The position numbers and the translations under genes are program-made. The notes beneath the pieces were generated by a model that was not told the DNA's origin, ran no database searches, and saw only the letters and a list, made by a program, of their open reading frames with translations. From the human T2T-CHM13v2.0 reference genome, Homo sapiens, in assembly GCF_009914755.1 (NCBI RefSeq), contig NC_060928.1: a stretch of DNA of 64,000 bases; one strand, written 5' to 3'. Shown in pieces: positions 20,901 to 64,000 of this stretch. Positions within the stretch are counted from its first letter, which is position 1. Every line of letters starts with the position of its first letter.

Positions 20901-21165
20901 GCATTCCACTCAATTCCATTCCACTCCATTCCATTCCTCTCCATTTCCTTCCATTCCTTTCCATTCCATTTCATTCCACTCCATCCCATTCCATTCCTCT
21001 GCACTGCAATCCATTCCACTCCATTCCGTTCCACTCCATTTCCTTCCATTCCTTTCCATTCCATTTCATTCCACTCCATCCCATTCCATTCCTCTGCACT
21101 GCACTCCATTCCACTGCAATACATTCCATTCCATTCCCCTCTACTCCATTCCATTGTATTACGTT
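17931..21165 (+). repeat. HSat3 subdomain, CACTC-rich dialect resumed
   Basis: ccactccatt runs return; TCGA is rare. Confidence 0.85.
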
Positions 21166-30100: not shown

Positions 30101-33100
30101 CCCTTCCTTTCGAGTCCATTCGATTACTGTCCATTCCATTCCACTCCTTTCCTGTCCATTGCATTCCATTCTATTCGATTGTATTCCATTCGAGTCAATT
30201 CCATCCAAGTCCTTTCCTTTCTAATCATTTAAATTCGAGTACATTCCAATCCTTTCCATTCCATTTTGTTCCATTCCATTGGAGTCCATTCCATTCTAGT
30301 CTATTGCATTACAATCCATTACAATCGAGTCCATCCCATTCTTTACCATTCCATTACATTACGTTACATTCGAGTCCATTCCATTCGAGTCCATTCTTTT
30401 GAGTCCATTCCATTGCAGTCCATTCCATTAGATTCCACCCCATTCGATTCCATTCTAATCGACTGCATTCCATTCGAGTCCATTTTGTTTAATTCCATTC
30501 CATTTGAGTGCATTCCATACAAATCCTTTTCATTCAAGTCCATTTCATTCAAGTACATTCCATTCCAGTCCTTTATATTCGAGTATATTCCATTCCATTC
30601 GATTCCATTCCATTCCATTTTGTTCTATTCTATTTGATTGCATTCCATTTGACTCCATTCCATGTGAGTCCATTTGATTCCAGTCCTTTCCGTTCCAGTC
30701 CTTTACATTCGAGTCCATTCCATTCCATTCCACTCCGTTTGATTCCATTCCATTTGATTGCATTTCATTCCCTTCGAATCCATTCCATTCGATTCCATTC
30801 CATTCGATAGCATTCCTTTCAAGTCCATTCCATTGGAGTCCATTCCATTCGAGTCCATTCCATTTCAGTCCATTCCATTCGATTCCATTCCATTCCATTC
30901 CATTCTATTCCATTCCATTCCGTGCGAAACCGATCCCTTCCAGCCCATTTCATTTGATTCCTTTCCATTAGATTCCATTCCATTCGATTGCGTTCCAATC
31001 GAGTCCATTCCTTTCGCGTCAATTCCATTCGAATCCATTGCATTCGAGTCCATAGCATTCCATTACATTACATTAGAGTCCATTACCTTCCATTCCATTC
31101 TATTCTGTTCCTTTTCATTTCATTGCATTTGATTCCATTCCATTCGGGTCCATTCCATTCGAGCCCTTTCCTTTCCATTCCATTCCATTCGAGTCCATTC
31201 CACACCATTCCATTCCACTCCAGTCCACTCTATTCGGTCCCATTCTAATTGATTCCATTAAATTCGATTCGATTCCATTCCATTCCATTCTATTCCAGTC
31301 CTTTCTATTGCATTTCATTCCATTCCATTCCATTCCGTTCGATTCCATTCCATTTCATTCAATTCCATTCAATTCATTTAAATTCTATTCGATTCCATTC
31401 CATTCAATTTGATTCCATTGCATTCCACTCCATTCCATTCCATTGCGTTCCTTTCCATTTCATTTAATTGCATTCAATTCCATTCCATTCCATTCCATTC
31501 CATTCCATTCCATTCCATTCCATTCTTTTGCCTTCAATTCCATTCCGTTCGACTCCAGTCCTTTGGAGTCCGTTCCATTCTGTTCCATTCCATTGCTTTC
31601 AATTACATTTCATTTGACTCCAGTCCTTTGGAGTGCATTCCATTCCATTCCATTCCACTCCACTCCACTATACTCCATTCCATCCAACTCCACTTCCTTC
31701 CATTCCACTCCTTTGCAATCCATTAACTCCATTCCATTCTATTCCATTCCTTTCCATTCCATTGCATTACATTCCACTCCACTCCATTATACTCCATTCC
31801 GTTCAATTCCATTCCTTCCCCTTCCATTCCATTTGAGTCCATTCAACTCCACTCCCGTCTTCTACATTCAATTCCATTCCATCCCATTCCATTCCAGTCC
31901 ATTCCACTCCACTCCACTTCACCGCAATCCATTCGATTCCATTCCGTGCCATTCGACTCTTTTCAATTTGATTCCATTCCATTTGATTCCATTCCATTCG
32001 ATTTCATTCCATTTAATTTGATTCCACTCCATATGATTCCATTCCATTTGATCCCTTTTCATTTGATTTCATTCCATTCTATTCTGTTACATTCAATTCT
32101 GTTACATTCCATTCCATTCCTTTGGATTCCATTCCCTTCCATTCCATTCCATTCCATTCCTTTCCAGTCCATTCCTTTCCAGTGCATTCCAATCAATTCC
32201 ATTCAATTTGTTTCCATTCCATTAGATTCCATTCCTTTCAAGTCCATTCCATTCGAGTCCATTCAATTCTAGTCCATTCCATTCCAGTTCATTCCATTTG
32301 ATTCCATTCCTTTCCATTCCGTTAAATTACATTCTATTGTATTTGATTCCAATCCATTCTAGTCGATTCTGTTCGTCTATTCCATTCGATTCCATTCCTT
32401 TCAATTCCATTCCATTTGATTCCATTACATTCGATTCCATTCCATTCTATTGCATTCCATTTGAGTTCATTCCATTCCAATCCATTCCATTCGGGTCCAC
32501 TCAATTCCGGTCCATTACATTTGATTCCATTCCATTTCATTCCATTCTATTCCATTCCATTCCATTCTGTCCGATTCCATTGCATTAGATTCCATTCCAT
32601 TAGATTCTTTTCCTTTCATCTACATTCCACTCAATTACATTCCATTTGATTCCATTCCATTCTATTCCATACCATTCCGTTCCATTCGTTTGCATTCCTA
32701 TTCCATTCCATTCGATTCTATTACCATCGATTCCATTCCTTTTGATTCCTTTCCTTTTTAGTCCTTTCTATGCGAGTCCATTCCTTTCGAGTCCATTCTA
32801 TTCCAGTGCATTCCATTCGAGTCCATTCCATTCCATTAGATTCCATTCCATTCAAGACTTCCACTTGATTCCATTCCTTTTGATTCCATTCCATTTCATT
32901 CCATTCCATTGCATTCCATTCCATTGCATTCCATTTGAATCCTTTCCATTCAAGTCGTTTCCATACCATTCTGTTCCATTACAATGGATTCCTTTCATTT
33001 CGAGTCCATTCCATTCGACTCCACTCCATATGAATCCATTCAATTCCAGCCCATTCCATTTGATTCCATTCCATTCAATTCCATTCCATTCAAATGCATT

Positions 33101-36100
33101 CCATTCGAGTCCATCCCATTTGAATCCATTCCATTCATGTTCATTCTATTCGAATCCATTCCATTCGTGTCCATTCCACTCCATTCCATTCCATTCCATT
33201 CCACTAGATTCCATTCCAGTTGTTTCAATTCCATTCGAGTCCATTCCTTTCTATTCCATTCCATTCGAGAATGTTCCCTTTCAGTCCATTCCATTCCAGT
33301 ACATTTCATTCCAATCCATTCCACTCGATTCCATTCCAATCCATTCCATTCAATGCCATTCCATTCCTTGTGATTCCATTCCTTTTGATTCCATTCCATT
33401 CATTTAGATTCCATTCCATTTGAGTCCATTCCCTTTGAGTCCATTACATTCGAGTCCATTCCATTTGAGTCCACTCAATTCGATTCTATTCCATTCGATT
33501 CCATCCCATTCTATTCCATTCCATTCAAAGGCATTCCATTCCAGTCCATTCCATTTGAATCTATGCCACTCAAGTCCATTCCATTCAAATCCACTCCATT
33601 CGATTCCATTCCATTTGAATCCATTCCATTCCAATCCATTCCATTATAGTCCACTCCATTCGATTCCATTCCATTCCATTCTCTTCCATTCCATTCCATT
33701 CCTTTCCATTCCATTTCATTCCAATCCATTCCATTCCATTACATTCTATTCCTTGCCATTCAATTGCATTCCATTCAAGTCAGTTACGTTCGAGTTAATT
33801 CCTTTCCAGGCCATTACATTGGAATACATTCCGTTCCAGTACGTTACATTTCATTCGATGCCATTTTATTCTAGAACATTCCATTCCAGTCCAGTCCATT
33901 CATTTCCATTGCATTCCAGTCCATTCCATTCGATTCCATTCCATTCCATTCCAGTCCATTCCATTCAAGTCCATAACATTCGAGTCCATTCCATTCCAGT
34001 CTGATACATTCAGTTCCATTCCATTCCATTCTATTCAATTTCTTTTGATTCCATTCCTTTCGAGTCCATTCCATTGCAGTCAATTACATTCGAGTCCAAT
34101 CCATTCCATTCTAATTCATTCCATTCCATTCGGTTCCATTCCATTCCTGCCCATTAAATTCGAGTCCAATCCATTCCTTTCCTATTCATTCCATTCCATT
34201 CGGTTCCATTCCATTCCTGCCCATTACTTTCGAGACCATTCCATTTCATTCTATTCCATTTCATTCCATTTGGTTCAAATCCATGCTATTCCAACCGATT
34301 CCATTTGATTCCATTCCATTCCATTCCATTCCATTCCATTCCATTCCTTTCCTTTCCATTCGAGTCCATTCCATTCGAGTACGTTGCATTCAGTTACATT
34401 CCATTTGAGACCTTTCCTTTGCAGTCAATTGCATCTGAGTTCATTCCAATCCGGTCTATTACATTGGATTCCATTCCATTAGATTCCATTGCATTCGATG
34501 CCAGTCCTTTGGAGTCCATTCCATTCGAGCCCTTTCCATTCTATTCAATTCCATTCCATTCCATTCCATTCGATACCATTCCATTTCATTCCATTCCTTT
34601 AGTGTCCATTCCATTCTAGTCCATTCCAATCGATTCCATTCCATTTGATTCAATTCCTTTCCAATCCATTCCATTCAACTCCATTCCAATAATTCCATTC
34701 AACTCGATTCTTTTGCAGTCCATTCCATTGCATTAGATGCCATTCCATTCAAGTCCATTCCACTCGATTCCATTCAATTCCAGTGCATTGCATTCGAGTC
34801 CATTCCATTTGATTCCATTCCATTCCGTTACTTTTCATTCCGTTCCATTCCATTATATTCGATTCCTTTCAATTCGAGTCCATTCCATTCCAGTGCATTC
34901 CATTCGGTTTCATTCCATTCAATTCATTCCATTTGATTTCATTACATTCGATTCTATGCCATTCGTTTGCATTCCATTCGAGCTCATTCCCTTCCAGTCC
35001 ATTTCATTCGAGTCCATTCCATTCCAGTCTACTACATTCGAGTCCTTTCCATTCCATTGCATTCCAATCAATTCAATTCTATTACATTCGAATCCATTTC
35101 ACTCAATTCCATTCCATTCTTTTCTATTCCATTCCATTCCTTTCCATTCTATTGCATTCCATTCGTTTGCATTTCATTAGATTCCATTCCATTCGATCCC
35201 ATTACATTCTGTTCTATTCCATTCCATTCCATTTCTTTCTTTTTGAGTTCATTCCATTCTAGTCCATTCCATTCTAGTCCATTCCATTCCTGTCCACTCC
35301 AGTCGAATCCATTCCATTCCATTCCATTCCATTCCATTCCATTCCATTCCATTCCATTCTAGTAGATTCTATTCCAGTCGATTCCATTCCATTCCATTGC
35401 ATTCCATTCGATTGCATTCCATTCGATTCCATTCCATTAAATTCGATTCCATTCCATTCAATTCCATTCCATTCAATTCCTTTCCTTTTGAGTCCATTCC
35501 ATTCGAGTCCATTCTTATCAATTCCATTTCCTTCCAGTCCATTCCATTCGATTCCTTTCCATTTGATTCTATTCCATTCGATTCTGTCCGGTTCGATTCC
35601 ATTCCATTCGATTACATTCCATTCGAGTCCATCCAATTGAATCCATTCCATTCCAGTCCATTCTATTAGAATCCATTCTATTCGTTTCCATTCCATTCCA
35701 TTTTATTGCATTCGTGTCCATTCCATTCAATTCCATTCTCTTTGAATCCATTCCATTCCAGTCCATTCCATTCGAGTCCATTCCATTCCAGTACATTTCA
35801 TTCGGGTCCATTCCATTCGATTCCATTCTATTCCTTTCCATTCCATTCGATTCCATTCCATTCGATTAGATTCCATTTGGGGCCGTTATATTATACTCCA
35901 TTCCATTAGAGTCCATTCCATTCCAGTCCATTCCATTGCATTCCACTCAATTCCATTCCATTCCATTCAATTCCAATTCATTCCAGTCCATTCCATTCCA
36001 GTCCGTTCCATTCCTTTCCTTTCCATTCCATTCCATTCCTTTCAAATCCATTCCATTCAATTCCATTCCATTCCATTCCATACCATTCGATTCCATGCCA

Positions 36101-36895
36101 TTCCAGTCCATTCCTTTTGAGTCCAGTCCATTCCATTCCTTTCAAATCTATTCCATTCCATTCCATTCCATTCCATTCCATTCCATTCCATTCCATTCCA
36201 TGCTATTAGATTCCATTCCATTCCATTGTGTTACATTCATTTCCATTCCATTCCATTTGAATCCATTCCATTCTATTCCATTCCATTCCATTTGAATCTA
36301 TTCCATTCTATTCCTTTCCATTCCCTTCCCTTCCATTCTATTCCATTCCATTTGATTTGATTCGATTCCATTCCATTCCAATCCATTCCATTCCATTAAA
36401 TTCTATTCCATTCCTTTCGATTCCATTTCAGTCAATTCCATTCCATTCGATTCCATTCCACTCCAGGCCATTTCATTCGAGTCCGTTCCATTCCATTAAA
36501 TTCTATTCCATTCCATTCCACTCCATTCCATTCCCTTCTTTTCCATTCCATTCCTTTCCTTTCAGGACTATTCCATTCCTGTCCAGTCCATTCGAATCCA
36601 TTCCATTCCATTTGCTTCCATTCTGTTCGATTCCATTCCATTCAATTGCATTCCATTCCTTTCGAATCCATTCCGTTTCCATTCCTTTTGTTTCCATTCC
36701 TATCCATTCGAGTCCGTTCCATTCCACTCGATTCTATTCCATTTGATTCCATTGCATTCGAGACCGTTCCATTCTGTTCCATTCAATTCGATTCCATTCC
36801 ATTCGATTAACTTTCATTAGATTCCATTTCATTTGATTCCATTCCATTCGAGTCCATTCCATTCCATTCCATTCCAGTCCATTCCATTCGAATCC
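21166..36895 (+). repeat. HSat3 subdomain, CGATTC/GAGTC/CAGTC/TGATTC dialect (TaqI- and HinfI-site rich)
   Basis: Dense cattcgagtcc, ttcgattcc, ttgattcc and ccagtcc among CCATT runs; CCACT depleted. Confidence 0.88.
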
Positions 36896-37235
36896 ATTCT
36901 ATTCTATTCCACTCCATTCCATACCACTCCGTTCTACTTTACTCCACTCCACTACACTAAATTCCATTGTATCCAACTCCATTCCATGCCATTGCACTCC
37001 TTTCCTCTGCACTGCACTCCACAGCGCTCCATTCCACTCCATCCCATTCCATTCTGCTCCATTCAACGGCAATCTTCTCCACACAACTCATCTCCACTTC
37101 ATTCCATTCCATTGCATTCCATTCCATCTCATTCCATTTGTCTCCATTCCAGTCAACTCTAATTCACCCCACTCCTCTCCACTTCGGTCCACTCCATTCG
37201 ATTCCATTCCATTCCACTGCATTCTGTTCTATTCC

Positions 37236-37299
37236 TTTCTTTCGAAAGTATCTCACTCTATCACCCAGCCTGCAGCGCAGTGGCAGAATCTCAGCTCAC
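37236..37299 (-). mobile_element. Alu 3'-end fragment, variant A
   Basis: gtatctcactctatcacccagcctgcagcgcagtggcagaatctcagctcac. Confidence 0.8.
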
Positions 37300-37522
37300 A
37301 TTTCATTTCACCATTCCATTGCATTCCATTCCACTCTATTCCACTCTACTCCACTCCACTCCAATCCATTCCACTCCACTCCACTCCAGTCCATTCCACT
37401 CCACTCCTTTCCATTCCATCCCATTTCATTCCACTCCTTTCCACTCCACTCCAATCCACCCCACTCCATTCCATTCCACTCCATTCCATTCCATTCCATT
37501 CCACTCGTTTCCTTTCCATTCC

Positions 37523-37586
37523 TTTCTTTTGACAGGATCTCATTCTGTCACCAAGGCTTGTGTGCAGTGGCACAATCTCATCTCAC
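37523..37586 (-). mobile_element. Alu 3'-end fragment, variant B
   Basis: gacaggatctcattctgtcaccaaggcttgtgtgcagtggcacaatctc. Confidence 0.8.
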
Positions 37587-37709
37587 ATTTTACTTCACCA
37601 TTTCATTCCATTCCATTCTATTCCACTGCACTCCACTCCACTGAATTCTACTCCACTCCACTCCAATCCATGCCACTCCATTCCATTCCAATCTCTTCCA
37701 TTCCACTCC

Positions 37710-37772
37710 TTTCTTTCGACAGGATCTCCCTGTGTCATACAGGCTGTAGCACGTGGCACAATCTCAGCACTC
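37710..37772 (-). mobile_element. Alu 3'-end fragment, variant C
   Basis: gacaggatctccctgtgtcatacaggctgtagcacgtggcacaatctcagcac. Confidence 0.75.
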
Positions 37773-38285
37773 ATTCCTTTTCACCATTTCATTCCATTCC
37801 ATTCCATTACATTCCATTACACTTCATTCCATTCCTCTGCATTCCATTTCACTCTACTCCAGTCCACTCCACTCCATTTCATTCCACCACATTCCATTCC
37901 ACTCTTTTCCACTCCATTCCACTCCATTCCATTTCATTCCACTCCATTCCATTCCACTCCACTCCTCTCCACTCCATTCCACTCCACTCCACTCCATTCC
38001 ACTCCACTCCATTCCATTTCATTCCATTCCACTCCATTCCATTCCCTTCCACTCCATTCCATTCCCTTCCATTACATTCCATTCGATTGCATTCCACTCC
38101 ACTCCACTCAATTCCTCTCCCTTCCATTCCACTCCACTCAATTCCTTTCCATTCCATTCCTTACCATTCCATTCCACTCCACTCCATTCCATTCCATTGC
38201 AGTCCACTCCACTCCACTCCGCTCCACTCCACTCCACTGCTCTCCTTTTCGTTCCATTCCATTTCACTCCATTGCATTCCATTCC

Positions 38286-38347
38286 TTTCTTTCGACACTA
38301 TATCACTGTGTCACTCAGGCTGGAGAGCAGTGGCACAGTCTGCTCAC
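38286..38347 (-). mobile_element. Alu 3'-end fragment, variant D
   Basis: tatcactgtgtcactcaggctggagagcagtggcacagtctgctcac. Confidence 0.78.
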
Positions 38348-38760
38348 ATTGCATGACAGCATTCCATTTCATTGCATTCTATTCCATTGCATTCCATTGA
38401 ATTCCATTACATTCCATTCTATTCCATTCCATTCCGTTCCACTCCACTCCACTCCACAACATTCCATCCCATTCCACACCACTCCACTCCCCTGCATTCC
38501 GTCACATCCAATTCCATTCCACTCCATTCCACTCCTCTCCACTCCCCTTCTCTCTACACCACTCCATTCCACTCCATCCCATTCCATTCCGCTCCATTCC
38601 ACTGGACTCCGCTCCTCCCCACTCCACTCCACTTCATTCCATTCCATTCCATCCCATTGCCTTCCTCTCCATTCCACTCCACTCCACTTCACTCCACTCC
38701 AATCCACTCCCGTCCACTCCATTCCATTCCATTCCACTGCATTGCATTCCATTCCATTCC

Positions 38761-38824
38761 TTTCTTTCGAGAGTATCTCACTCCGTCACCCAGCCTGGAG
38801 AGCAGTGGCACAATCTCAGCTGAC
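38761..38824 (-). mobile_element. Alu 3'-end fragment, variant A
   Basis: gagagtatctcactccgtcacccagcctggagagcagtggcacaatctcagctgac. Confidence 0.82.
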
Positions 38825-39037
38825 ATTTAATTTCACCATTCCATTCAATTCCGTTCCATTCAGTTCCATTCTGCTCTACTCCACTCCACTCCATTGCAAT
38901 CCATTCCACTTCACTCCACTCCATTCCATTCCACTCCACTCCTTTCCTTTCCATCCCATTCCATTGCACTCCTTTCCTCTCCAATCCACTCTACTCCACT
39001 CCATTCTATTGCATTCCACTCCATTAGATTGCATTCC

Positions 39038-39100
39038 TTTCGTTTGAGAGGATCTCACTCTGTCACTCAGGCAGGAGTGCAGTGGCACAATCTCAACCCA
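39038..39100 (-). mobile_element. Alu 3'-end fragment, variant B
   Basis: gagaggatctcactctgtcactcaggcaggagtgcagtggcacaatctc. Confidence 0.82.
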
Positions 39101-39224
39101 TTTTTCATTTCACCATTCCATTCCATTCCATTCCACTGCACTCCACTCCTATCCATTGAATTCCACTCCACTCCACTCCAACATATTCCATTCCGTGCAA
39201 TTCCAATCCCTTCCATTCCACTAC

Positions 39225-39288
39225 TTTCTTTTGACAAGATCTCCCTCTCTCACACAGGGTGTAGTGCAGTGGCACAATCTCAGCACAC
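39225..39288 (-). mobile_element. Alu 3'-end fragment, variant C
   Basis: gacaagatctccctctctcacacagggtgtagtgcagtggcacaatctcagcacac. Confidence 0.78.
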
Positions 39289-39631
39289 CTTTCTTTTCAC
39301 CATTCCATTCCACTCCATTCCATTCCGTTCCATTCCGTTTCATTCCATTGCATTCATTTCCATTGCATTCCATCCCACTCCATTCCATTCCATTCCACTC
39401 CATTCCATTCCATTCCATTCCACTCCATTCCATTCCATTCCACTCCACTCCATTCCATTCCATTCCACTCCACTCCATTCCATTCCACTCCACTCCATTC
39501 CATTCCATTCCATTCCACTCCACTCCATTCCATTCCACTCCAATCCATTCCACTCCACTCCTCTCCACTCCACTCCTCTCCACTCCGCTCCACTCCATTC
39601 CATTCCATTCCATTCCATACCATTCCTTTCC

Positions 39632-39695
39632 TTTCTTTCCAAAGGATCTCACTCTGTCACAGAGACTGGAGTGCAGTGGCACAATCTCAGCTCAC
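39632..39695 (-). mobile_element. Alu 3'-end fragment, variant E
   Basis: ccaaaggatctcactctgtcacagagactggagtgcagtggcacaatctcagctcac. Confidence 0.82.
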
Positions 39696-39873
39696 ATTTC
39701 TTTTCACCATTCAATTACATTCCATTCCATCCCATTCCATTCCTCTCTATTTCACTCCACTCCACTCCATTCCACTCCATCCCATTCCAGTTGACTCCTT
39801 TGCACTAAACTCCATTCCCTTCCACTCAATTCCATTCCATTCCATAACATTTCACTCCATTGCATTCCATAGC

Positions 39874-39937
39874 TTCCTTTCCACTGTATATCACTGTGTC
39901 ACCCAGGCTTGAGTGCAGTGGCACTATCTCAGCTCAT
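39874..39937 (-). mobile_element. Alu 3'-end fragment, variant D
   Basis: tatcactgtgtcacccaggcttgagtgcagtggcactatctcagctca. Confidence 0.82.
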
Positions 39938-40403
39938 ATTACATGTCAGCTTTCCATTTCATTGCATTCTATTCCATTGCATTAAATTGCATTCCATTTC
40001 TTTCCGTTACATCCATTCCATTCCATTCCTTTCCCTTCCATTCCACTCCGTTCGACTCCACTCCACTCCACTCCTCTACATTCCATTACATCCGATTCTA
40101 TTCCACTACATTACACTCCTCTCCACTCAACTACACTCCACTCCACTGCATTCCATTCCATCCCAATCCATTCCGCTCCATTCCACTGCACTTCCCTCTA
40201 CCCCACTCCACTCCACTTCATTCCATTCCATTCCATCCCATTCCATTCCCCTCCATTCCACTCCACCCCACTTCTCTCCAATCCACTCCTCTCCAGTTCC
40301 CTCCATTCCATTCCTTTCCATTTCATTCCATTCTATTCCATTCCATTCCATTCCATTCCATTCCATTCCATTCCATTCCATTACACTGCATTCCATTCCA
40401 TTC

Positions 40404-40468
40404 CTTTCTTTTGAGAGTATCTCACTCTGTCACCCAGCCCGGAGTCTAGTGGCACAATCTCAGCACAC
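40404..40468 (-). mobile_element. Alu 3'-end fragment, variant A
   Basis: gagagtatctcactctgtcacccagcccggagtctagtggcacaatctcagcacac. Confidence 0.8.
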
Positions 40469-40636
40469 ATTTCATTTCACCATTCCTTTCCATTCTATTC
40501 TATTTCATTCCATTCAGCTCTACTCCACTCCAATGCGTTCCACTCCACTCCATTCCATTCCACTCCTTTCCATTCCACCCCTTTCAACTCCACTCCCCTC
40601 CAATCCACTCCATTCCGTTCCACTCCATTCTATTCC

Positions 40637-40700
40637 TTTGTTTTGATGGGGTCTCACTCTGTCACCAAGGCTGGTGTGCACTGGCACAATCTCAGCTCAT
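40637..40700 (-). mobile_element. Alu 3'-end fragment, variant B
   Basis: gatggggtctcactctgtcaccaaggctggtgtgcactggcacaatctcagctca. Confidence 0.82.
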
Positions 40701-40828
40701 ATTTCATTTCACCATTCCACTCCAGTCCATTCCATTCCACTGCACTCCACTCCACTCCACTCAATTCCATTCCACTCCACTCCAATCCATTCCATTCCAT
40801 TCCATTCCAATCCCTTACGTTCCACTCC

Positions 40829-40892
40829 TTTCTTTTGACAGGATCTCCCTGTGTCACACAGGCTGTAGCACAGTGGCACAATCTCAGCACAC
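40829..40892 (-). mobile_element. Alu 3'-end fragment, variant C
   Basis: gacaggatctccctgtgtcacacaggctgtagcacagtggcacaatctcagcacac. Confidence 0.78.
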
Positions 40893-41310
40893 ATTTCTTT
40901 TCACCATATCATTCCATTCCATTCCACTCTATTCCTTTCCATTCCAATCCCTTCCACTGCACTCCACTCCACTCCATTCCACTCCACTCCACTCCACTCC
41001 ATTCCACTCCATGCCACTCCTTTCCACTCCACTCCACTCAATTCCATTCCACTCTACTCCACTCCACTCCACTCCTCTCCATGCCACTCCAATCCATTCC
41101 ACTCCATTCCACTCCATGCCACTCCATTCCACTCCACTCCAATCCATTCCACTCTATTCCACTCCACTCCACTCAATTCCACTCCCCTCCACTACACTCC
41201 ATTCCACTCCACTCCTCTGCACTCCACTCCACTCCCCTCCACTGCATTACATTCCACTCCACTCCACTCCCGTCTTCTGCATTACATTCCACTCCATTCT
41301 ATTCCATTCC

Positions 41311-41374
41311 TTTCTTTCCACAGGATCTCACTCTGTCACAAAAGCTGGAGTGCAGTATCACAATCTCAGCTCAC
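41311..41374 (-). mobile_element. Alu 3'-end fragment, variant E
   Basis: ccacaggatctcactctgtcacaaaagctggagtgcagtatcacaatctcagctcac. Confidence 0.8.
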
Positions 41375-42156
41375 ATTTCTTTTCACCATTCCTTTGCATT
41401 CCATTCCATCCCATTCCATTCCACTCTATTTCATTCCACTCCACTCCACTCCACTCCATTCCGTTCCACTCCATTCCACTTCACTCCATTCCATTCCATT
41501 CCATACCATTCCACTGGACTCCACTCCATTCCACCCCATTCCACTCCACTGCATTTCACTCCATTCCACTCCATTCCACTCCACTGCACTCCACTCCACC
41601 CCACTCCATTCCACCCCATTCCACTCCACTGCATTTCACTCCATTCCACTCCATTCCACTCCACTGCACTCCACTCCACCCCACTCCATTCCATTCCACT
41701 CCATTCCTTTCCATTGTACTCTATTCCATTCCATTCCTCTCCTTTCCATTCCATTCTACTCCACTCCATTCCGCTCCAGTCCATTCAACTCTACTCCTCT
41801 CCACTCCACTCCATTCCATTCCATTCCACTCCATTCCATGCCATTCCATTCCACTCCACTCCTTTCCATTCCATTCCACTGCACTCCATTCCACTCCACT
41901 CCTTTCCATTCCACTCCACTCCACTCCATTCCACTCCCCTCCATTCCACTCCACTCCATTCCACTCTACTCCTCTCCACTCCACTCCATTCCACTCCACT
42001 CCATTCCACTCTACTCCTCTCCACTCCACTCCATTCCATTCCACTCCATTCCATGCCATTCCATTCCACTCCCTTCCACTCAACTCCATTCCACTCTACT
42101 CCATTCCACTGCACTGTACTCCATTCCATTCCATTCTACTCCATTCCATTCCATTC

Positions 42157-42221
42157 CTTTATTTCTACTAGATCTCACTCTGTCAACCAGACTGGAGTTC
42201 AGTGGCACAATCTTAGATCAC
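42157..42221 (-). mobile_element. Alu 3'-end fragment, variant F (singleton)
   Basis: gatctcactctgtcaaccagactggagttcagtggcacaatcttagatcac. Confidence 0.78.
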
Positions 42222-42524
42222 ATTTCATTTCACCATTCCATTCCATTCCATTCAATTCCATTCCATACCACTCCATTCCACTCCACTCCACTCCACTTAA
42301 TTCCATTATATCCGATGCCATTCCACTCCATTCCACTCCTCTCCTCTCCACTGCACTCCACTCCATTCCACTCCATCCCATTCCATTCTGCTCCATTCCA
42401 CTGCAATCCCCTCCACCCCACTCATCTCTATTTCATTCCAATCCATTCCATCCCATTCCAGTCCACTCCACTTCACCCCACTCCATTCCACTCCATTCCA
42501 TTCCACTGCATTCCATTCTATTGC

Positions 42525-42588
42525 TTTCTTTTGAAACAATCTCACTCTGTCACCCAGCCTGGAGCGCAGTGACAAAATCTCGGGTCAC
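42525..42588 (-). mobile_element. Alu 3'-end fragment, variant A
   Basis: gaaacaatctcactctgtcacccagcctggagcgcagtgacaaaatctcgggtcac. Confidence 0.8.
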
Positions 42589-42796
42589 ATATCATTTCAC
42601 GATTTCATTCCATTCCATTCCATTCCACTCCACTCCACTCTTCTCCACTCCTCTCCAATCCATTCCACTCCACTCCACTCCACTCCATTCCAGTCTACTC
42701 CACTCCACTCCATTCCATCCCACGCCATTCCACTCCTTTCCACTCCACTCCACTCCACTCCATTCCATTCCATTCCACTCCATTCCATTCCATTGC

Positions 42797-42860
42797 TTTC
42801 TTTTGACAGAATCTCACTCTGTCACCCAGGCTGGTGTGCAGTGGCACAGTCTCATCTCAC
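42797..42860 (-). mobile_element. Alu 3'-end fragment, variant B
   Basis: gacagaatctcactctgtcacccaggctggtgtgcagtggcacagtctcatctcac. Confidence 0.85.
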
Positions 42861-42973
42861 ATTTCACTTCAGCATTCCATTCCATTCCATTCTATTCCAC
42901 TGCACTCCACTCCACTCAATTCGACTCCACTCCAGTCCAATTCATTCCATTCCAATCCCTTCCATTCCACGCC

Positions 42974-43037
42974 TTTCTTTCGACAGGATCTCCCTCTGTC
43001 ACACGGGCTGTAGTGCATTTGCACAGTCTCAGCACAC
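42974..43037 (-). mobile_element. Alu 3'-end fragment, variant C
   Basis: gacaggatctccctctgtcacacgggctgtagtgcatttgcacagtctcagcacac. Confidence 0.75.
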
Positions 43038-43535
43038 ATTTGTTTTCACCATTTCATTCCATTCCATTCCATTCCGTTCCATTCCATTCCATTCTATTAC
43101 ACTACATTGCATTCCACTGCATTCCATTACACTCTACTCCAGTCCACTCCACTACATTCCATTCCACTCTTTTCCACTCCATTCCACTCTATTCCGTTCA
43201 ATTCCTCTCCATTCCATTCCACTCCACTCCACTCCTATCCACTCCATTCCTCTCCACTCCACTCCATTCCACTCCACTCCATTCCATTTCATTCCATTCC
43301 ACTCCATTTCATTCCTTTCAATTACATTCCATTCGATTGCATTCCACTCCACTCCACTCCGTTACTCTTCATTCCACTCCACTCCACTCCATTCCATCCC
43401 ATTCCTTTCCATTCCATTCCATTCCTCTCCACCCTATTCCAATCCATTGCATTCCACTCCACTCCACTTTACTCCACTCCACTCCTCTCCACTCCATTCC
43501 ATTCCATTCCATTTCACTCCATTGTATTAAACTCC

Positions 43536-43599
43536 TTTCTTTCGACCGGATATCACTGTGTCACCCAGGCTGGAGTGCAGTGGCACAATCTCTGTTCAC
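43536..43599 (-). mobile_element. Alu 3'-end fragment, variant D
   Basis: ggatatcactgtgtcacccaggctggagtgcagtggcacaatctctgttcac. Confidence 0.87.
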
Positions 43600-43787
43600 A
43601 TTACATGTCAACATTCCATTTCACTGCATTCTATTCCATTGCATTCCATTGTATTCCATTCCAGTCCATTCCATTACATTCCACTCCACTCCATTCCATT
43701 CCATTCCATTCCATTCCATTCCATTCCATTCCATTCCACGCCACTCCTCTCCACTCCACTCCATTCCATTCCATACCATTCCTTTCC

Positions 43788-43851
43788 TTTCTTTCCAAAG
43801 GATCTCACTCTGTCACAGAGGCTGCAGTGCAGTGGCACAATCTTAGCTCAC
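43788..43851 (-). mobile_element. Alu 3'-end fragment, variant E
   Basis: ccaaaggatctcactctgtcacagaggctgcagtgcagtggcacaatcttagctcac. Confidence 0.82.
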
Positions 43852-44039
43852 ATTTATTTTCACCATTCCTTTACATTCCATTCCATCCCATTCCATTCCT
43901 CTCTATTTCACTCCACTCCACTCCACTCCATTCCATTCCACTCCATCGCATTCCATTCGACAACATTCCACTAAACTCCACTCAACTCAATTCCATTCCA
44001 TTCCGTTCCATACCATTTCACTCCACTGCATTCCATAGC

Positions 44040-44103
44040 TTCCTTTCCATAGGATATCACCATGTCACCCAGGGTGGAGTGCAGTGGCACTATCTCAGCT
44101 CAC
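44040..44103 (-). mobile_element. Alu 3'-end fragment, variant D
   Basis: ggatatcaccatgtcacccagggtggagtgcagtggcactatctcagctcac. Confidence 0.82.
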
Positions 44104-44492
44104 ATTACATGTCAACTTTCCATTCCTTTGCATTCAATTGCATTGCATTCCTTTCCATTCCATTCCATTCCATTCCACTCCGTTCGACTCCACTCCTCTC
44201 CACTCCTCTACATTCCATTACATCCGATTCAATTCCACTCTATTCCATTCGTCTCCACTCCACTGCACTCCACTCCACTCCATTCAACTCCATCCCATTC
44301 CATTCCGCTCCATTCGTTTGCACTCCACTCCACCCCACTCCACTCCACTTCATTCCATTCCATTCCATCTCATTCCATTTCTCTCCATTCCTCTCCACTC
44401 CACTTCACTCCAGTCCACTCCTCTCCAGTCCACTCCATTCCATTCCATTCCATTCCGTTCCATTCCATTCCACTGCATTCCATTCCATTTCC

Positions 44493-44555
44493 TTCTTTCG
44501 AGAATATCTCACTCTGTCACCCAGACTGGAGCGTGGTGGCACAATCTCAGCTCAT
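44493..44555 (-). mobile_element. Alu 3'-end fragment, variant A
   Basis: gagaatatctcactctgtcacccagactggagcgtggtggcacaatctcagctca. Confidence 0.82.
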
Positions 44556-44748
44556 ATTACATTTCACCATTCCATTCCATTCTCTTCTTTTCTATTCCAC
44601 TCCACTCCAGTACATTCCCCTCCACTCCACTCCATTCCAGTCCATTCCAGTCCTTTCCATTCCATCCCATTCCATTCCACTCCTTTCCACTCCATTCCCC
44701 TCCACTCCACTCCAATTCATTCCATTCCACTCCATTCCATTCCATTCC

Positions 44749-44812
44749 TTTCTTTTGACAGGATCTCACTCTATCAACCAGGCTGGTATGCAGTGGCACA
44801 ATCTCAGCTCAT
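44749..44812 (-). mobile_element. Alu 3'-end fragment, variant B
   Basis: gacaggatctcactctatcaaccaggctggtatgcagtggcacaatctcagctca. Confidence 0.82.
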
Positions 44813-44940
44813 ATTTCATTTCACCATTCCACTATATTCCATTCCATTCCACTGCACTCCACTCCACTCCAGTCAATTCCATTCCACTCCACTCCAAACG
44901 ATTCCATTCCATTCCATTCCAATCCATTCCATTCCACTCC

Positions 44941-44972
44941 TTTCTTTCAACAGGATCTCCCTGTGTCACACA
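44941..44972 (-). mobile_element. Alu 3'-end fragment, variant C, internally deleted
   Basis: caacaggatctccctgtgtcacaca joined directly to the tttcttttca flank. Confidence 0.7.
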
Positions 44973-45424
44973 TTTCTTTTCATCATTTCATTCCATTTCA
45001 CTCCAGTCCACTCCACTCCATTCCAATCCATGTCAATCCATTCCACTCCACTCCATTCCATTCCATTCTACTTCACTCCAGTCCACTCGTCTCCATTCCA
45101 CTCCACTCCACTGCATTCCACTCCATGCCACTCCATTCCACTCCACTGCATTCCATTGCATGACACTCCATTCCACTCCACTCCACTCCATTCCATTCCA
45201 CTCTACTCCACTCCACTCAATTCCACTTCACTCCACTCCATTCCTCTCCACTCCACTCCACTGAATTCCATTCCACTCTACTCCACTCCACTCCACTCAA
45301 TTCCACTTCACTCCACTCCACTCAATTCCTCTCCACTCCACTCCACTCCACTCCACTCCACTCCACTCCACTCCTCTCCACTCCACTCCACTGCATTCCA
45401 TTCCACTCCATTCCATTCCATTCC

Positions 45425-45488
45425 TTTCTTTCCACAGGAACTCACTATGTCACAAAGGCTGGAGTGCAGTGGCACAGTCTCAGCTGAC
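45425..45488 (-). mobile_element. Alu 3'-end fragment, variant E
   Basis: ccacaggaactcactatgtcacaaaggctggagtgcagtggcacagtctcagctgac. Confidence 0.8.
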
Positions 45489-45631
45489 ATTTCTTTTCAC
45501 CATTCCATTGCATTCCATTGCATCCCATTCCTTTCCACTCTATTTCACTACACTCCACTCCATTCCGTTCCACTCCTTCCCTTTCCATTCCACTCCACTC
45601 CACTCCATTCCACTCCATTGCATTCCATTCA

Positions 45632-45695
45632 TTTCTTTCAACATGATATCACTGTGTCACCCTGGCTGGAGTGCAGTGGCACAATCTCAGCTCAC
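45632..45695 (-). mobile_element. Alu 3'-end fragment, variant D
   Basis: gatatcactgtgtcaccctggctggagtgcagtggcacaatctcagctcac. Confidence 0.85.
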
Positions 45696-46138
45696 ATTAC
45701 ATGTCATCTTTCCATTGCATTGCATTCTATTCCATTGCATTCCAATGCATTCCATTCCATTCCATTCCATTCCATTCCATTCCATTCCAGTCCTTTCCAA
45801 TCTATTCCATTCCGTTCAATTCCGTTCCATTCCACTCTGTTCCACTCCACTCCCCTGCACTTCACTACATTCCATTACACCAGATCCCATTCCACTCCAT
45901 TCCATCCCTCTCCACTCCACTGCACTCCACTCCACTCTATTCCAATCCATCCCATTCCATTCCGCTCCATACCACTGCACTCCACTCCACCCCACTCCAC
46001 TCCTCTTCATTCCATTCCATTCCATCTTTTTCCATTCCTCCAGATTGCACTCTACTCGACTTCACTGCACTCCACTCCGCTCCACTCCACTCCACTCCAA
46101 TCCATTCCATTCCATTCCACTGCATTCAATTCCATTCC

Positions 46139-46202
46139 TTTCTTTCGAGAGTATCTCACTCTGTCACCCTGCCTGGAGTGCAGTGGCAGAATCTCAGCTC
46201 AC
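46139..46202 (-). mobile_element. Alu 3'-end fragment, variant A
   Basis: gagagtatctcactctgtcaccctgcctggagtgcagtggcagaatctcagctcac. Confidence 0.85.
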
Positions 46203-46400
46203 ATTTCATTTCACAATTCCATTGTATTCTACTCCATTAAATTCCACTCCACTCCACTCCAATCCATTCCACTCCACTCCAACCCAGTCCAATCCACTCC
46301 AGTCCTTTTCTTTCCATCCCATTCCATTCCACTCCTTTCTACTCCACTCCACTGCTCTCAACTCCATTACATTCCATTCCACTCCATTCCATTCCAGTAC

Positions 46401-46464
46401 TTTCTTTTGACAGTATCTCACTCTGTCACCCAGGCTGGTGTGCAGTGGCACAATCTCAGCTGAC
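46401..46464 (-). mobile_element. Alu 3'-end fragment, variant B
   Basis: gacagtatctcactctgtcacccaggctggtgtgcagtggcacaatctcagctgac. Confidence 0.87.
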
Positions 46465-46582
46465 TTTTCATTTCACCATTCCATTCCAGTCCATTCCACT
46501 GCACTCCACTCCATTACACTCAATTCCACTCCACTGCATTCCAATCCATTCCATTCCATTCCAATCCCTTCCATTCCACTCC

Positions 46583-46627
46583 TTTCTTTCAACAGGGTCT
46601 CCCTCTGTCACACAGGCTGTAGTGCAG
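46583..46627 (-). mobile_element. Alu 3'-end fragment, variant C, truncated at the beta-satellite junction
   Basis: caacagggtctccctctgtcacacaggctgtagtgcag followed directly by gtgatg. Confidence 0.8.
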
Positions 46628-47300
46628 GTGATGAGACTATTTTATAGGATCTGTGTATGGGGGCATTGTGACCTATCTCTGCACTGACCACCCAGGTGAT
46701 GGGACTTTTGTCTAGGCTCTGCCTACGGTGCCATTGTGACCTGTCTCTTCACTGTTCACCCAGGTGATGTAACTCTTGTTTTGGATCTGCCTAAGGGGCA
46801 TCATGACATATTTCTGCACTGATCACCCAGGTGATGGGACTCTTGTATAGGCTCTGTATATGGGGGACTTCTGACATATCCCTGCACTGATCACCCAGGT
46901 GATGTAACGCTTGACTAGGCTGTGAATTCTGGGGCATAGTGACATATCGCTGCATTGATCACCGAGATGATCTAACTCTTGTCCAGGCTCTGCCTATAGA
47001 AGGCCCAGTGACATCTCTGCACTGATCATCTACTTGATGTAACTCTTGGTTATGCATTGCCTGCAGGGTCATTGTGAAATATCTCTTTACTGATCAACCA
47101 GGTGATCTAAGTATTGTCTAGGCTCTGCCTACAGGGGGCTTTGTGGCATAACTCTGCACTGATCACCCAGGTGATGGGACTCTTCTCTAGGCTCTGCCTA
47201 TTGTGGGCATTGTCACATATTTCTGCACCGATCACCCAGGTGACGGACATTTGTCTTGGATCTGCCTATGGGGGCATTGTGACATATCTCTGCACTGATA
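46625..47300. repeat. Beta satellite (68-bp Sau3A family, BSR), ~10 diverged monomers
   Basis: Unit ~caggtgatgggactcttgtctaggctctgcctacagggggcattgtgacatatctctgcactgatcacc; anchors at 46625, 46693, 46761, 46828, 46896, 46964, ~47031, 47099, 47168, 47237; GATC in most units. Confidence 0.95.
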
Positions 47301-62300: not shown

Positions 62301-64000
62301 ATGTAATATATACTATGGGTACTTTGATATTTTATGTACAGTATATAATACACACTTTGGGTACTTTGATATTTTATGTACAGTATATAATACACACTTT
62401 GGGTACTTTGATATATTATGTACAGTATATAATACATACTTTGTGTACTGTGATATATTATGTACAGTATATAATACATACTTGTGTACTTTGATATTTT
62501 GTGTACAGTGTATAATACACACTTTGTGTACTTTGATACTTTAAGTACAGTATATAATACATATTTTGGGTACTTTGATATTTTATGTACAGTATACAAT
62601 ACATACTTTGGGTAGTTTGATATTTTATGTACAGTATATAATACATACTTTAGGTACTTTGATATTTTATGTACAGTATATTATACATACTTTGGGTACT
62701 TTGATATTTTATGTACAGTATATAATACATACTTTGGGTACTTTGATATTTTATGTACAGTATGTAATACATACTTTGGGTACTTTCATATTTTATGTAC
62801 AGTATAGAATATATAGTTTGGGTGCTTTGATATTTATTTACAGCTGATAATACATACTTGGGGTACTTTCATATTTTATGTACAGTATATAATACATACT
62901 TTGGGTACTTTGATATTTTATGTACAGTATACAATATATAGTTTGAGTACTTTAATATTATTTGTCCAGTATAAAATATATAGTTTTGGTACTTTGATAT
63001 TTTATGTACAGTATATAGTTTGAATACTTTGATATTTTATGTACAGTTTATTATAAATGTTTGGGTACTTTCATATTTTATGTACAGTATATAATACATA
63101 GTTTGGGCACTTTGATATTTTATGTACAGTATGTAATACATACTTTGGGTAGTTTGATATTTTATGTACAGTATATTATACATACATTGGTAACTTTGAT
63201 ATATTATGTACCGTATATAATTCATACATTGGGTATGTTGATATTCTGTGTACACTATGTAATACATACCTTGGGTAGTTTGATATTTTATGTACAGTAT
63301 ATAATACATACTTTGGGCACTTTGATATTTTATGTACAGTATACAATACATACTTTGGGTACTTTGATATTTTATGTACAGTATATAATACATACTTTGG
63401 GTACTTTGATATTTTATGTACAGTATATAATGCATACTTTGGGTACTTTGATATTTTATGTACAGTATATAATACTTTGAGTACTTTGATATTTTAAGTA
63501 CAGTATATCATACATACTTTGGGTACTTTAATATTTTATGTACAGTATATAATATATAGTTTGGGTACTTTGATGTTTTATCTACAGCTTATAATACATA
63601 CATTGGGTACTTTGATATTTTATGTACAGTATATAATACATACTTTGGGTACTTTGATATTTTATGTACAGTATATAATATATAGTTTGAGTACTTTGAT
63701 ATTTTATGTCCAGTATAAAATATATAGTTTTGGTACTTTGATATTTTATGTACAGTATATAGTTTGAGTACTTTGATATTTGATGTACAGTTTATTATAA
63801 ATGTTTGTGTACTTTCATATTTTATGTAAAGTATATAATACATACTTTGGGCACTTTGATATTTTATGATCAGTATATAATACATACTTTGGGTACTTTG
63901 ATATTTTATGTACAGTATACTATATATAGTTTGCGTACTTTGTTTTTTTATGTACCGTATGCAATATATAGTATTGGTAATTTCATATTTCATGTACAGT
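47300..64000. repeat. Human satellite 1A (HSat1A / SAR), 42-bp AT-rich tandem repeat, running off the window end
   Basis: Consensus tttgggtactttgatattttatgtacagtatataatacatac (42 bp, 10/42 G+C); two GTAC (RsaI) sites per unit give the classical 17+25 bp pieces. Confidence 0.96.
53410..55500. repeat. Recent duplication in HSat1A with 1366-bp offset
   Basis: Rare variants (cagttcattataa, catactgtgggcac, atttcatctacag) recur at a 1366 offset; ORF pairs 53685/55051 and 53709/55075 are nearly identical. Confidence 0.85.

What the first reader, a model, noticed from the sequence alone, without database searches (positions are those of the whole stretch)
37236..46627. Alu-fragment/HSat3 composite satellite: one captured ~64-bp Alu tail amplified 28 times
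Seen: 28 copies of the same short motif lie between CACTC/CATTC tracts, with matching left boundaries (tttctttc) and right boundaries (ctcac + atttcatttcacc or attacatgtca). Established: the motif matches the antisense 3' end of the Alu right monomer (GTCTCGCTCTGTCGCCCAGGCTGGAGTGCAGTGGCGCGATCTCGGCTCAC plus an eroded poly-T). Inference: identical breakpoints, one orientation and no individual target-site duplications point to a single capture followed by tandem amplification, not 28 insertions. This is a TE fragment turned into a satellite unit, analogous to the Alu piece in HSat1B/DYZ2 but in an HSat3 background. I do not recognise it as a named family, but cannot exclude that it is already annotated.
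Basis: partly seen in the sequence, partly recalled or inferred. Interest (0 to 1): 0.8.

Follow-up and report, generated by a model that had tools for sequence, protein, structure and literature searches.

The report
Alu-tail piece inside HSat3 satellite
A 64-base tail of an old Alu element was caught once in a human satellite-3 repeat unit and copied along with it; the chr4 array is one duplicated copy of a family spread over many chromosomes, so it is real but ordinary.

Summary
There are 28 same-strand copies of a 64-bp piece (T-rich tail plus about 56 nt of the antisense 3' end of an Alu right arm) at window 37236-46627. All share the same two junctions. Genuine Alus from the same genome align only to those 64 bp and stop at the same base.

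A single capture followed by amplification is supported, but it is neither chr4-specific nor new.
- The two junctions occur 1552 times and at least 2000 times genome-wide; reversed-pattern controls give 0. That suggests roughly 3,200-3,500 copies, or about 1.3 Mb.
- Matches lie on chr1, 3, 4, 7, 9, 10, 13-17, 20-22 and Y.
- The chr4 array, with at least 17 kb of plain HSat3 to its left and its beta-satellite junction, is a duplicated segment of at least 27 kb. It recurs at 95-99% identity on chr13 (twice), 14, 15, 21, 22 and 3.
- The chr13 copy has the same order of five fragment subtypes (ABCED, a roughly 1.5-2.1 kb higher-order repeat).
- Repeats within the array are only about 70-78% alike, so amplification long predates dispersal.

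Altemose et al. already state that HSat3 units often include ancient TE fragments. The family looks like HSat3A4 (clones pR-1/pR-2), but this is unproven.

The parts
37236..46627 (+). HSat3 (CATTC/CACTC pentamer) array carrying 28 copies of a 64-bp antisense Alu 3' tail. Spacing between copies is 177-847 bp.
37225..38749 (+). Higher-order unit 1, fragment subtypes A-B-C-D. Fragments (+/-2 bp): 37236-37299 A, 37523-37586 B, 37710-37773 C, 38286-38347 D.
38750..40393 (+). Higher-order unit 2, A-B-C-E-D. Fragments: 38761-38824 A, 39038-39101 B, 39225-39288 C, 39632-39695 E, 39874-39937 D.
40394..42513 (+). Higher-order unit 3, A-B-C-E plus one consensus-like copy. Fragments: 40405-40468 A, 40637-40700 B, 40829-40892 C, 41311-41374 E, 42158-42221 unassigned.
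42514..44480 (+). Higher-order unit 4, A-B-C-D-E-D. Fragments: 42525-42588 A, 42797-42860 B, 42974-43037 C, 43536-43599 D, 43788-43851 E, 44040-44103 D.
44481..46127 (+). Higher-order unit 5, A-B-C-E-D. Fragments: 44492-44555 A, 44749-44812 B, 44941-~44971 C (internal deletion, shared with the chr13 paralog), 45425-45488 E, 45632-45695 D.
46128..46627 (+). Higher-order unit 6, A-B-C, cut short. Fragments: 46139-46202 A, 46401-46464 B, 46583-~46624 C. The last fragment is cut by the junction with the 68-bp array.
46625..47299 (+). Array with a 68-bp period, beta-satellite-like (9.9 copies). It abuts the last Alu fragment. The HSat3-to-68-bp junction is conserved at 98% in the paralogs.
   Evidence: the 68-bp unit of beta satellite is as stated in the Altemose preprint
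20000..47000 (+). Minimum extent of the segmental duplication that holds the array. It is colinear with chr13:10.707-10.734 Mb and with copies on chr13 (5.0 Mb), 14, 15, 21, 22 and 3.

Best explanation
What it is: a stretch of classical human satellite 3 (HSat3) whose repeat unit carries a fossil Alu tail.

How it arose (steps 1-2 inferred, 3-5 shown):
1. One Alu went into a (CATTC)n array in antisense orientation. Only its last ~56 nt plus a short A-rich tail remained, either through 5'-truncated retrotransposition or through later deletion.
2. All six CpG sites of that piece had already decayed, all in the same direction.
3. The piece was then copied passively, together with a characteristic right flank (ATTTCATTTCACC) and 0.1-0.8 kb of pentamers, by unequal exchange.
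4. In one lineage five diverged units (A, B, C, E, D) became a ~1.5-2.1 kb higher-order repeat, which was itself reiterated.
5. Much later, a segment of at least 27 kb was dispersed as a segmental duplication among the five acrocentric short arms and the pericentromeres of chr3 and chr4. It held plain HSat3, this array, a beta-satellite stub, and in the window the start of a 42-bp AT-rich array.

The chr4 array is therefore an inherited, decaying copy, not a locally amplified satellite. Genome-wide, the same unit forms roughly 3,000 copies (~1.3 Mb). It is most likely the acrocentric-centred subfamily HSat3A4 (clones pR-1, pR-2, pTRS-47). The Alu piece has no demonstrated function; it acts as a lineage marker.
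For: Same breakpoints:
- All 28 of 28 window copies align without junction indels.
- Across 204 copies sampled from 9 satellite stretches on chr4, 9, 13, 14, 17 and 20, the alignment crosses the left junction in 198 of 204 and the right junction in 194 of 204.
- It crosses them in 0 of 10 real Alus, and 9 of those 10 end at the break.
- Orientation relative to the pentamer strand is fixed in all 9 stretches.

Shared derived states and monophyly:
- Three columns inside the Alu-like part carry a state present in 72-100% of 201 copies and absent from all 10 Alus. Three of the 204 copies were dropped because their segment ran off a locus end.
- FastTree on the 64 Alu-like columns puts all 201 copies in one clade without any Alu, support 0.755.
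- Six former CpG sites read CA in 70-92% of 201 copies.

Genome-wide spread:
- Left junction 1552 matches; right junction 2000 matches (likely a cap); controls 0.
- Pattern sensitivity on known copies is 0.49 and 0.58, giving about 3,200-3,500 copies.

Higher-order repeat:
- Subtype order is ABCD|ABCED|ABCE.|ABCDED|ABCED|ABC.
- Fragment identity is 0.870 within a subtype (52 pairs) and 0.804 between subtypes (248 pairs).
- The best self-alignment offset is 1525 bp at 73.7% identity.

Duplication:
- chr4 35740-45774 is colinear with chr13:10723001-10733000, with 166 mismatches in 10148 columns (95.8% identity with gaps).
- The chr13 copy has the same subtype string.
- Both edges, and window 20000-21000, recur at 95-99% on chr13 (twice), 14, 15, 21 and 22. 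On chr3 the beta-satellite junction is 98%, window 20000-21000 is 95%, and the left edge only 90%.

Literature:
- Altemose 2014 Table 1 and Table S1 place clones pR-1 (1529 bp), pR-2 (1556 bp) and pTRS-47 in HSat3A4, on chr13, 14, 15, 21, 22 and Y, with 2,518 kb per diploid genome.
Against: - The subfamily label is not proven. None of the 14 top subfamily 24-mers of Altemose 2014 occurs exactly in the window.
- Of six HSat3A4-specific 24-mers, only 1 hit falls in the window array. Neighbouring chr4 arrays have 2-9 hits, and the chr13, chr20 and chr14 samples have 0.
- A broader k-mer test could not be run.
- No Alu-less 'empty' unit was found, so the insertion event itself is not observed.
- An 8-9 nt direct repeat, TTTC(A)TTTC, brackets the piece in the consensus. 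The 'eroded poly-T' could instead be one copy of a target-site duplication; this is unresolved.
- Tree support is modest (0.755), and the outgroup is only 10 Alus from one locus.
- The copy-number extrapolation rests on samples that were chosen from pattern hits.
- No ape genomes were available, so no dating was done.
Confidence: 0.85

Rival explanations
1. A chr4-private, newly formed composite satellite: the Alu tail was captured on chr4 and amplified 28 times in place.
For: All 28 copies are clustered in one 9.4-kb stretch of the window, on one strand, with identical junctions.
Against: The whole block recurs on seven other loci at 95-99% identity: the beta-satellite junction is at 98% on all seven, and the left edge at 96-99% on six but only 90% on chr3. 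The chr13 paralog, the only one compared in full, has the same 25-copy subtype order and the same deleted copy. Repeats inside the array are only ~70-78% alike. The junctions occur thousands of times genome-wide.
Confidence: 0.03
2. The Alu piece spread into pre-existing HSat3 units by gene conversion or short-patch exchange, rather than by amplification of a unit that already carried it.
For: Spacer lengths between pieces vary widely, from 112 to 880 bp. Acrocentric short arms are known to exchange sequence (passages of preprint 10.64898/2025.12.22.696095).
Against: The right-flank motif almost never occurs without the piece (166 of 175 occurrences carry it), and likewise the left motif (165 of 181). 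Adjacent Alu-free HSat3 in the same window (1-37 kb) has no copy at all. The subtypes follow a regular higher-order order.
Confidence: 0.08
3. Twenty-eight (or thousands of) independent Alu insertions into a preferred HSat3 target site.
For: None beyond the presence of Alu-like sequence.
Against: Both ends have identical breakpoints in 194-198 of 204 copies. The same truncation, one orientation and shared derived substitutions are seen throughout. There are no per-copy duplications, and the copies form a single clade.
Confidence: 0.01
4. The piece does not come from a free Alu. It comes from another Alu-containing or 7SL-related source (for example the antisense Alu-like part of an SVA, or a monomeric relative), or the likeness is accidental.
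For: Only 56 nt plus a tail are available. Rfam found no SRP match in the array. The Alu subfamily could not be assigned.
Against: The 64-bp consensus is 72-88% identical to ten genuine dimeric Alus. The match runs from the tail and ends at one sharp point. A T-rich tail sits exactly where an Alu A-tail would lie.
Confidence: 0.03

Closest known systems
HSat3 subfamily HSat3A4 (Altemose 2014); classical acrocentric satellite III clones pR-1, pR-2, pR-4, pE-2, pTRS-47
   Same: Both are mixed CATTC/CACTC pentamer arrays. All 5 subfamily-specific 24-mers that hold a CACTC run are 3A4. Both occur on all five acrocentrics and Y (against Table 1). Repeat units are ~1.5 kb: 1525 bp measured here against 1529 and 1556 bp for pR-1 and pR-2. 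Family size is ~1.3 Mb haploid by extrapolation against 2.5 Mb diploid in print. Altemose et al. cite the paper that describes these clones for TE fragments in HSat3 units.
   Different: Only a few 3A4 24-mers hit. The window copy sits on chr4, and other copies lie on chr1, 3, 7, 9, 10, 16, 17 and 20, which the 2014 list of predominant sites for 3A4 does not name.
HSat1B / DYZ2 (2.47-kb Y-chromosome unit with one Alu per repeat; Frommer 1984, as cited in the Altemose preprint)
   Same: A TE-derived piece became a fixed part of a satellite repeat unit and was amplified passively.
   Different: HSat1B combines AT-rich sequence with Alu fragments and lies almost entirely on the Y. Here a 64-bp tail sits in pentameric HSat3 on many chromosomes. 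No sequence comparison was made.
Composite satellites of T2T-CHM13 (Hoyt et al.; Altemose et al.)
   Same: Tandem arrays whose units contain TE sequence.
   Different: [quoted passage not shown] Here about 64 bp in every ~400 bp is TE-derived and the rest is pentamer satellite. The Hoyt preprint text has 0 mentions of HSat3.

Membership tests
HSat3 (classical satellite III) | Arrays derived from the (CATTC)n/(GGAAT)n pentamer | tested here: met
   TRF finds period 5 across 30000-46142 and 2-37138. There are 96-135 CATTC and 47-110 CACTC per 2 kb across the array.
HSat3 (classical satellite III) | Pericentromeric or acrocentric short-arm location | tested here: met
   The window is chr4:49.60-49.66 Mb (hub note). 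Paralogs lie at 1-11 Mb of chr13, 14, 15, 21 and 22, and at chr3:95.39 Mb and chr1:128.6 Mb.
HSat3A4 subfamily (Altemose 2014) | Carries subfamily-specific 24-mers from the published list (65 for 3A4) | tested here: inconclusive
   Six of the 65 were tested: 1 hit in the window array, 2-9 in the neighbouring chr4 arrays, 3 each in the chr17 and chr9 samples, and 0 in the chr13, chr20 and chr14 samples. The top 24-mers of all 14 subfamilies gave 0 exact hits in the window. A wider test was not run.
HSat3A4 subfamily (Altemose 2014) | Predominant localisation on chr13, 14, 15, 21, 22 and Y | tested here: met
   Matches occur on all five acrocentrics and on contig 24 (Y). Smaller blocks also lie on chr1, 3, 4, 7, 9, 10, 16, 17 and 20.
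HSat3A4 subfamily (Altemose 2014) | Sequence identity to type clones pR-1, pR-2 and pTRS-47 | not testable with these tools
   The clone sequences are not held. Only unit lengths could be compared: 1529, 1556 and 1366 bp in Table S1 against a 1525-bp best offset here.
Alu (7SL-derived SINE) | Homology to the Alu body ending in an A-rich tail | tested here: met
   The 64-bp consensus aligns to 11 places in real Alus at 79-95%. The match starts at the tail.
Alu (7SL-derived SINE) | Dimeric ~280-300-bp element with its own target-site duplication | tested here: not met
   Only ~56 nt of the right arm plus the tail are present. All copies share one pair of flanks. They are fragments, not elements.
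Composite satellite in the sense of Hoyt/Altemose | Unit composed entirely of TE pieces | tested here: not met
   Spacers of 112-880 bp between pieces are pentamer satellite.

The most novel reading that the evidence does not exclude
The Alu tail may be an undescribed shared derived marker of one whole HSat3 lineage: about 3,000 copies, ~1.3 Mb, on at least 16 chromosomes, and only ~3% of all HSat3. Because it cannot be older than dimeric Alus, it would set a maximum age for that lineage. Its five-subtype higher-order form would give a tracer for how acrocentric short-arm satellite blocks seeded the pericentromeres of chr1, 3, 4, 7, 9, 10, 16, 17 and 20. No open paper I could search spells this out. 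Bandyopadhyay 2001, Jarmuz 2007, the Science version of Altemose 2022 and the preprint supplements were not seen.
Probability: 0.25. Interest if true: 0.35.

Novelty: already known. Interest (0 to 1): 0.15.

Why it matters
The biology matters little: the piece is a passive passenger in a known satellite family, inside a known kind of pericentromeric/acrocentric duplication. It has some practical use.
- The two junctions are highly specific markers (0 control hits) for one HSat3 lineage, and could help trace satellite seeding between acrocentric short arms and pericentromeres.
- RepeatMasker-style 'Alu' calls inside HSat3 should not be counted as independent insertions.
- The case shows that a locally striking array can be an inherited copy of a genome-wide family.

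Tried and rejected
- Rfam scan of the array: no SRP/7SL match, only a noise hit (snoZ17, E=9.3). The piece is too short for this test.
- chr19 euchromatic control locus L009: no Alu 3' ends matched, so only the chr17 locus served as comparator.
- Subfamily assignment by published 24-mers: the top k-mer of each of the 14 subfamilies gave 0 exact hits in the window. Substrings of the Alu core and junction are absent from the 29,214-k-mer list, so the piece is not used as a subfamily marker there. Six 3A4 k-mers gave sparse hits. A wider k-mer test was not run.
- Supplement file 14 of Altemose 2014 holds scaffold localisations, which were irrelevant.
- Search for Alu-less 'empty' units: none was convincing.
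- I first took chr17:27.83 Mb for the published HSat3B1 array. I dropped this, because the preprint places that array near KCNJ17 and I could not verify the coordinates.
- Papers not held: PMC1821104 (Jarmuz 2007), PMC332295 (Choo 1990), PMC9233505 (Altemose 2022 in Science).
- Reviews read in passages (PMC7767330, PMC12771815, PMC10505914, PMC8125562, PMC11526998) say nothing about Alu within HSat3.


Full report
**Observation**

Window 36.8-41 kb shows CATTC/CACTC pentamers interrupted at intervals by a non-pentamer motif. TRF calls period 5 across 30000-46142.

A blastn search of one copy (39621-39710) against the window returns 28 hits. All are on the + strand, all lie between 37232 and 46627, and none lies elsewhere in the 64 kb.

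A MAFFT alignment of the 28 copies with 40 nt of left flank and ~65 nt of right flank has no indel at either junction.
- Left junction: ...CATTCC|TTTCTTT(C/T)GA...
- Right junction: ...CAGCTCAC|ATTTCATTTCACC, or ATTACATGTCA in one subtype.
- Twenty-six copies are full length.
- Copy 23 has an internal deletion.
- Copy 28 is cut where a 68-bp-period array begins at 46625.

**Is it Alu?**

I tested this against real elements of the same genome rather than from memory.
- The majority consensus of the copies aligns over positions 52-115 (64 bp) at 79-95% to 11 places in a chr17 euchromatic locus. No HSP extends past position 115: 8 of 11 end exactly there and one ends at 114.
- Those places lie in ~280-bp dimeric elements with a long poly-T on one side. 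Rfam scores them as sub-threshold Metazoa_SRP matches of 27-62 bits. That is what Alus look like.
- The match covers the tail and the first ~56 nt of the antisense strand, which is the 3' end of the right arm.
- Beyond GCTCAC the Alus and the satellite copies have nothing in common.
- Rfam on the array itself finds no SRP match. The piece is too short for that.

**One capture**

I sampled eight further stretches with the same motif: chr4:49.528-49.558 Mb (three loci), chr13:10.723 Mb, chr17:27.834 Mb, chr20:29.832 Mb, chr9:76.681 Mb and chr14:9.765 Mb.

With a 90-nt core (11 nt flank, 64 nt piece, 15 nt flank) I found 204 copies in 81.4 kb.
- Each stretch has copies on a single strand, always antisense Alu on the CATTC strand.
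- The alignment crosses the left junction in 198 of 204 copies and the right junction in 194 of 204.
- For 10 real Alus the figures are 0 of 10 and 0 of 10, and 9 of the 10 end at the break.
- Three columns inside the Alu-like part carry a state found in 72-100% of 201 copies and in none of the 10 Alus. Three copies were dropped because their segment ran off a locus end.
- A FastTree tree on the 64 Alu-like columns alone places all 201 copies in one clade without any Alu. Support is 0.755, which is modest, from a short alignment and a small outgroup.
- Six positions that are CpG in at least two of the ten Alus read CA in 70-92% of the 201 copies. The decay therefore preceded amplification.
- The flank motifs hardly occur without the piece: the right motif carries it in 166 of 175 occurrences and the left motif in 165 of 181. 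So the flanks are part of the amplified unit, and I found no empty site.

**Not a chr4 feature**

A 121-nt query from the window hits chr22, 15, 14, 13, 21, 3 and 1 at 92-98% identity.

Genome-wide, with up to 2 mismatches:
- The right-junction pattern has 1144 + 856 = 2000 matches, which looks like a cap.
- The left-junction pattern has 798 + 754 = 1552 matches.
- Both patterns read backwards have 0 matches.

The truncated listings, together, show chr1, 3, 4, 7, 9, 10, 13, 14, 15, 16, 17, 20, 21, 22 and Y.

On the 204 known copies the patterns recover 58% and 49%. That extrapolates to about 3,200-3,500 copies, or ~1.3 Mb at 2.5 copies per kb. The estimate is rough, because the samples were chosen from pattern hits.

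On chr9 all listed exact matches lie at 76.67-76.69 Mb. That fits a family that is a small part of HSat3, which totals 47.6 Mb.

**Internal structure**

The 28 pieces fall into five subtypes, each with its own diagnostic substitutions. Their order is ABCD | ABCED | ABCE+1 | ABCDED | ABCED | ABC.
- Units defined by successive A copies are 1525, 1644, 2120, 1967 and 1647 bp long.
- Fragment identity is 0.870 within a subtype (52 pairs) and 0.804 between subtypes (248 pairs).
- The best self-alignment offset is 1525 bp at only 73.7% identity; other offsets give 68-78%.

This is an old, decayed higher-order repeat. By contrast, the samples from chr17, chr20 and chr14:9.77 Mb carry undifferentiated copies that are 92-94.5% identical to the global consensus. 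Isolated EDABC units also occur in the chr4:49.53-49.55 Mb and chr9 samples.

**The block is a duplicated segment**

- Window 35740-45774 is colinear with chr13:10723001-10733000, with 166 mismatches in 10148 columns (95.8% identity with gaps).
- The chr13 copy has the same string of 25 subtypes and the same deleted copy 23.
- The left edge (36600-37400), the junction with the 68-bp array (46350-47000) and window 20000-21000 all recur colinearly at 95-99% on chr13 (two loci), 14, 15, 21 and 22. On chr3 the junction is 98%, window 20000-21000 is 95%, and the left edge is only 90%.
- More diverged copies (80-93%) lie on chr1, 10, 13, 14, 15, 16, 21, 22 and Y.

The duplicated segment is therefore at least 27 kb. 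Divergence within the array (~25%) far exceeds divergence between paralogs (~2-4%), so amplification long predates dispersal. The 28 copies were not made on chr4.

This fits the view that HSat3 arrays were seeded on acrocentric short arms and later moved to pericentromeres (passages of preprint 10.64898/2025.12.22.696095).

**Mechanism**

Shown: a single origin, passive co-amplification with the satellite unit, formation of a higher-order repeat, and dispersal by segmental duplication.

Inferred: the initial event was retrotransposition of an Alu into (GGAAT)n. Either it was 5'-truncated at insertion, or most of it was deleted later.

The consensus has an 8-9 nt direct repeat, TTTC(A)TTTC, on both sides of the Alu body. 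The T-rich stretch may therefore be an eroded A-tail or one copy of a single ancestral target-site duplication. I cannot tell which.

From memory, and untested here, the first bases of the Alu body look closer to old (AluJ-like) than to young subfamilies. No function is indicated.

**Comparison with what is known**

[quoted passage not shown] It cites Frommer 1984, Agresti et al. and Bandyopadhyay 2001 (acrocentric satellite III subfamilies).
- Altemose 2014 has no mention of Alu in its main text (0 occurrences).
- Its Table 1 and Table S1 place clones pTRS-47 (1366 bp), pR-1 (1529 bp), pR-2 (1556 bp), pR-4 and pE-2 in HSat3A4. That subfamily lies on chr13, 14, 15, 21, 22 and Y, and is sized at 2,518 kb per diploid genome.
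- In its list of 29,214 subfamily-specific 24-mers, none contains the Alu core or junction (6 substrings tried).
- The five k-mers in that list that contain a CACTC run are all 3A4.
- The 3A4 block has only 65 k-mers, all of low frequency.

Distribution, CACTC richness, unit length and family size all point to HSat3A4. I put the label at about 55%.

I found no open paper that spells out this particular Alu piece or the ABCED unit. Not seen: Bandyopadhyay 2001, Jarmuz 2007, Choo 1990, the Science version of Altemose 2022, and the supplements of the preprints. Any of them may describe it.

**Verdict**

The feature is real and correctly read as a single captured Alu tail. It is a known kind of thing, in a known satellite family, seen here in one inherited copy of a widespread segmental duplication. 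Interest is low.

Noticed in passing
window 46625-47299: An array with a 68-bp period (9.9 copies, beta-satellite-like) abuts and truncates the last Alu piece. Its relatives include the beta-satellite blocks at chr4:193.55 Mb, chr10:134.73 Mb and chr18:0.26 Mb (86-89% identity).
   Followed up: partly
window 47311-64000: An AT-rich array with a 42-bp period (402.6 copies, GC 0.23-0.24) runs to the window end. It matches the published description of HSat1A, and the Altemose preprint reports multi-megabase HSat1A arrays on chr3 and chr4. The HSat3-beta-satellite stub is shared with chr3:95.39 Mb and the acrocentrics, which hints that the chr3 and chr4 HSat1A arrays grew from an acrocentric-type duplicated segment.
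   Followed up: no
window 1-37200: This is Alu-free HSat3 in three compositional zones: 1-10 kb rich in CACTC (96-106 per 2 kb), 10-22 kb intermediate, and 22-36 kb almost pure CATTC (4-13 CACTC per 2 kb). TRF sees only period 5. At least 20-37 kb belongs to the same duplicated segment as the array.
   Followed up: partly
L011-L013 (chr4:49528001-49558000, 42-72 kb upstream of the window): A second, larger Alu-bearing HSat3 array on chr4 has 79 copies in 30 kb. Most are consensus-like, with occasional EDABC units.
   Followed up: partly
chr22:5.963-6.005 Mb (genome places listed): The whole Alu-bearing block recurs four times at a 12.6-kb spacing, at 91-96% identity to the window. This is a third, larger level of tandem repetition.
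   Followed up: no
Alu-like part of all 201 aligned copies: All six former CpG sites decayed in the same direction (to CA on the CATTC strand). Six of six on one strand would happen by chance about 3% of the time. It may simply reflect the single founder copy.
   Followed up: partly
L010 (chr17:45000001-45010000): Rfam families mir-1268, mir-3135 and mir-619 give sub-threshold hits inside ordinary Alus. This reflects the Alu-derived nature of those models, not genes.
   Followed up: no
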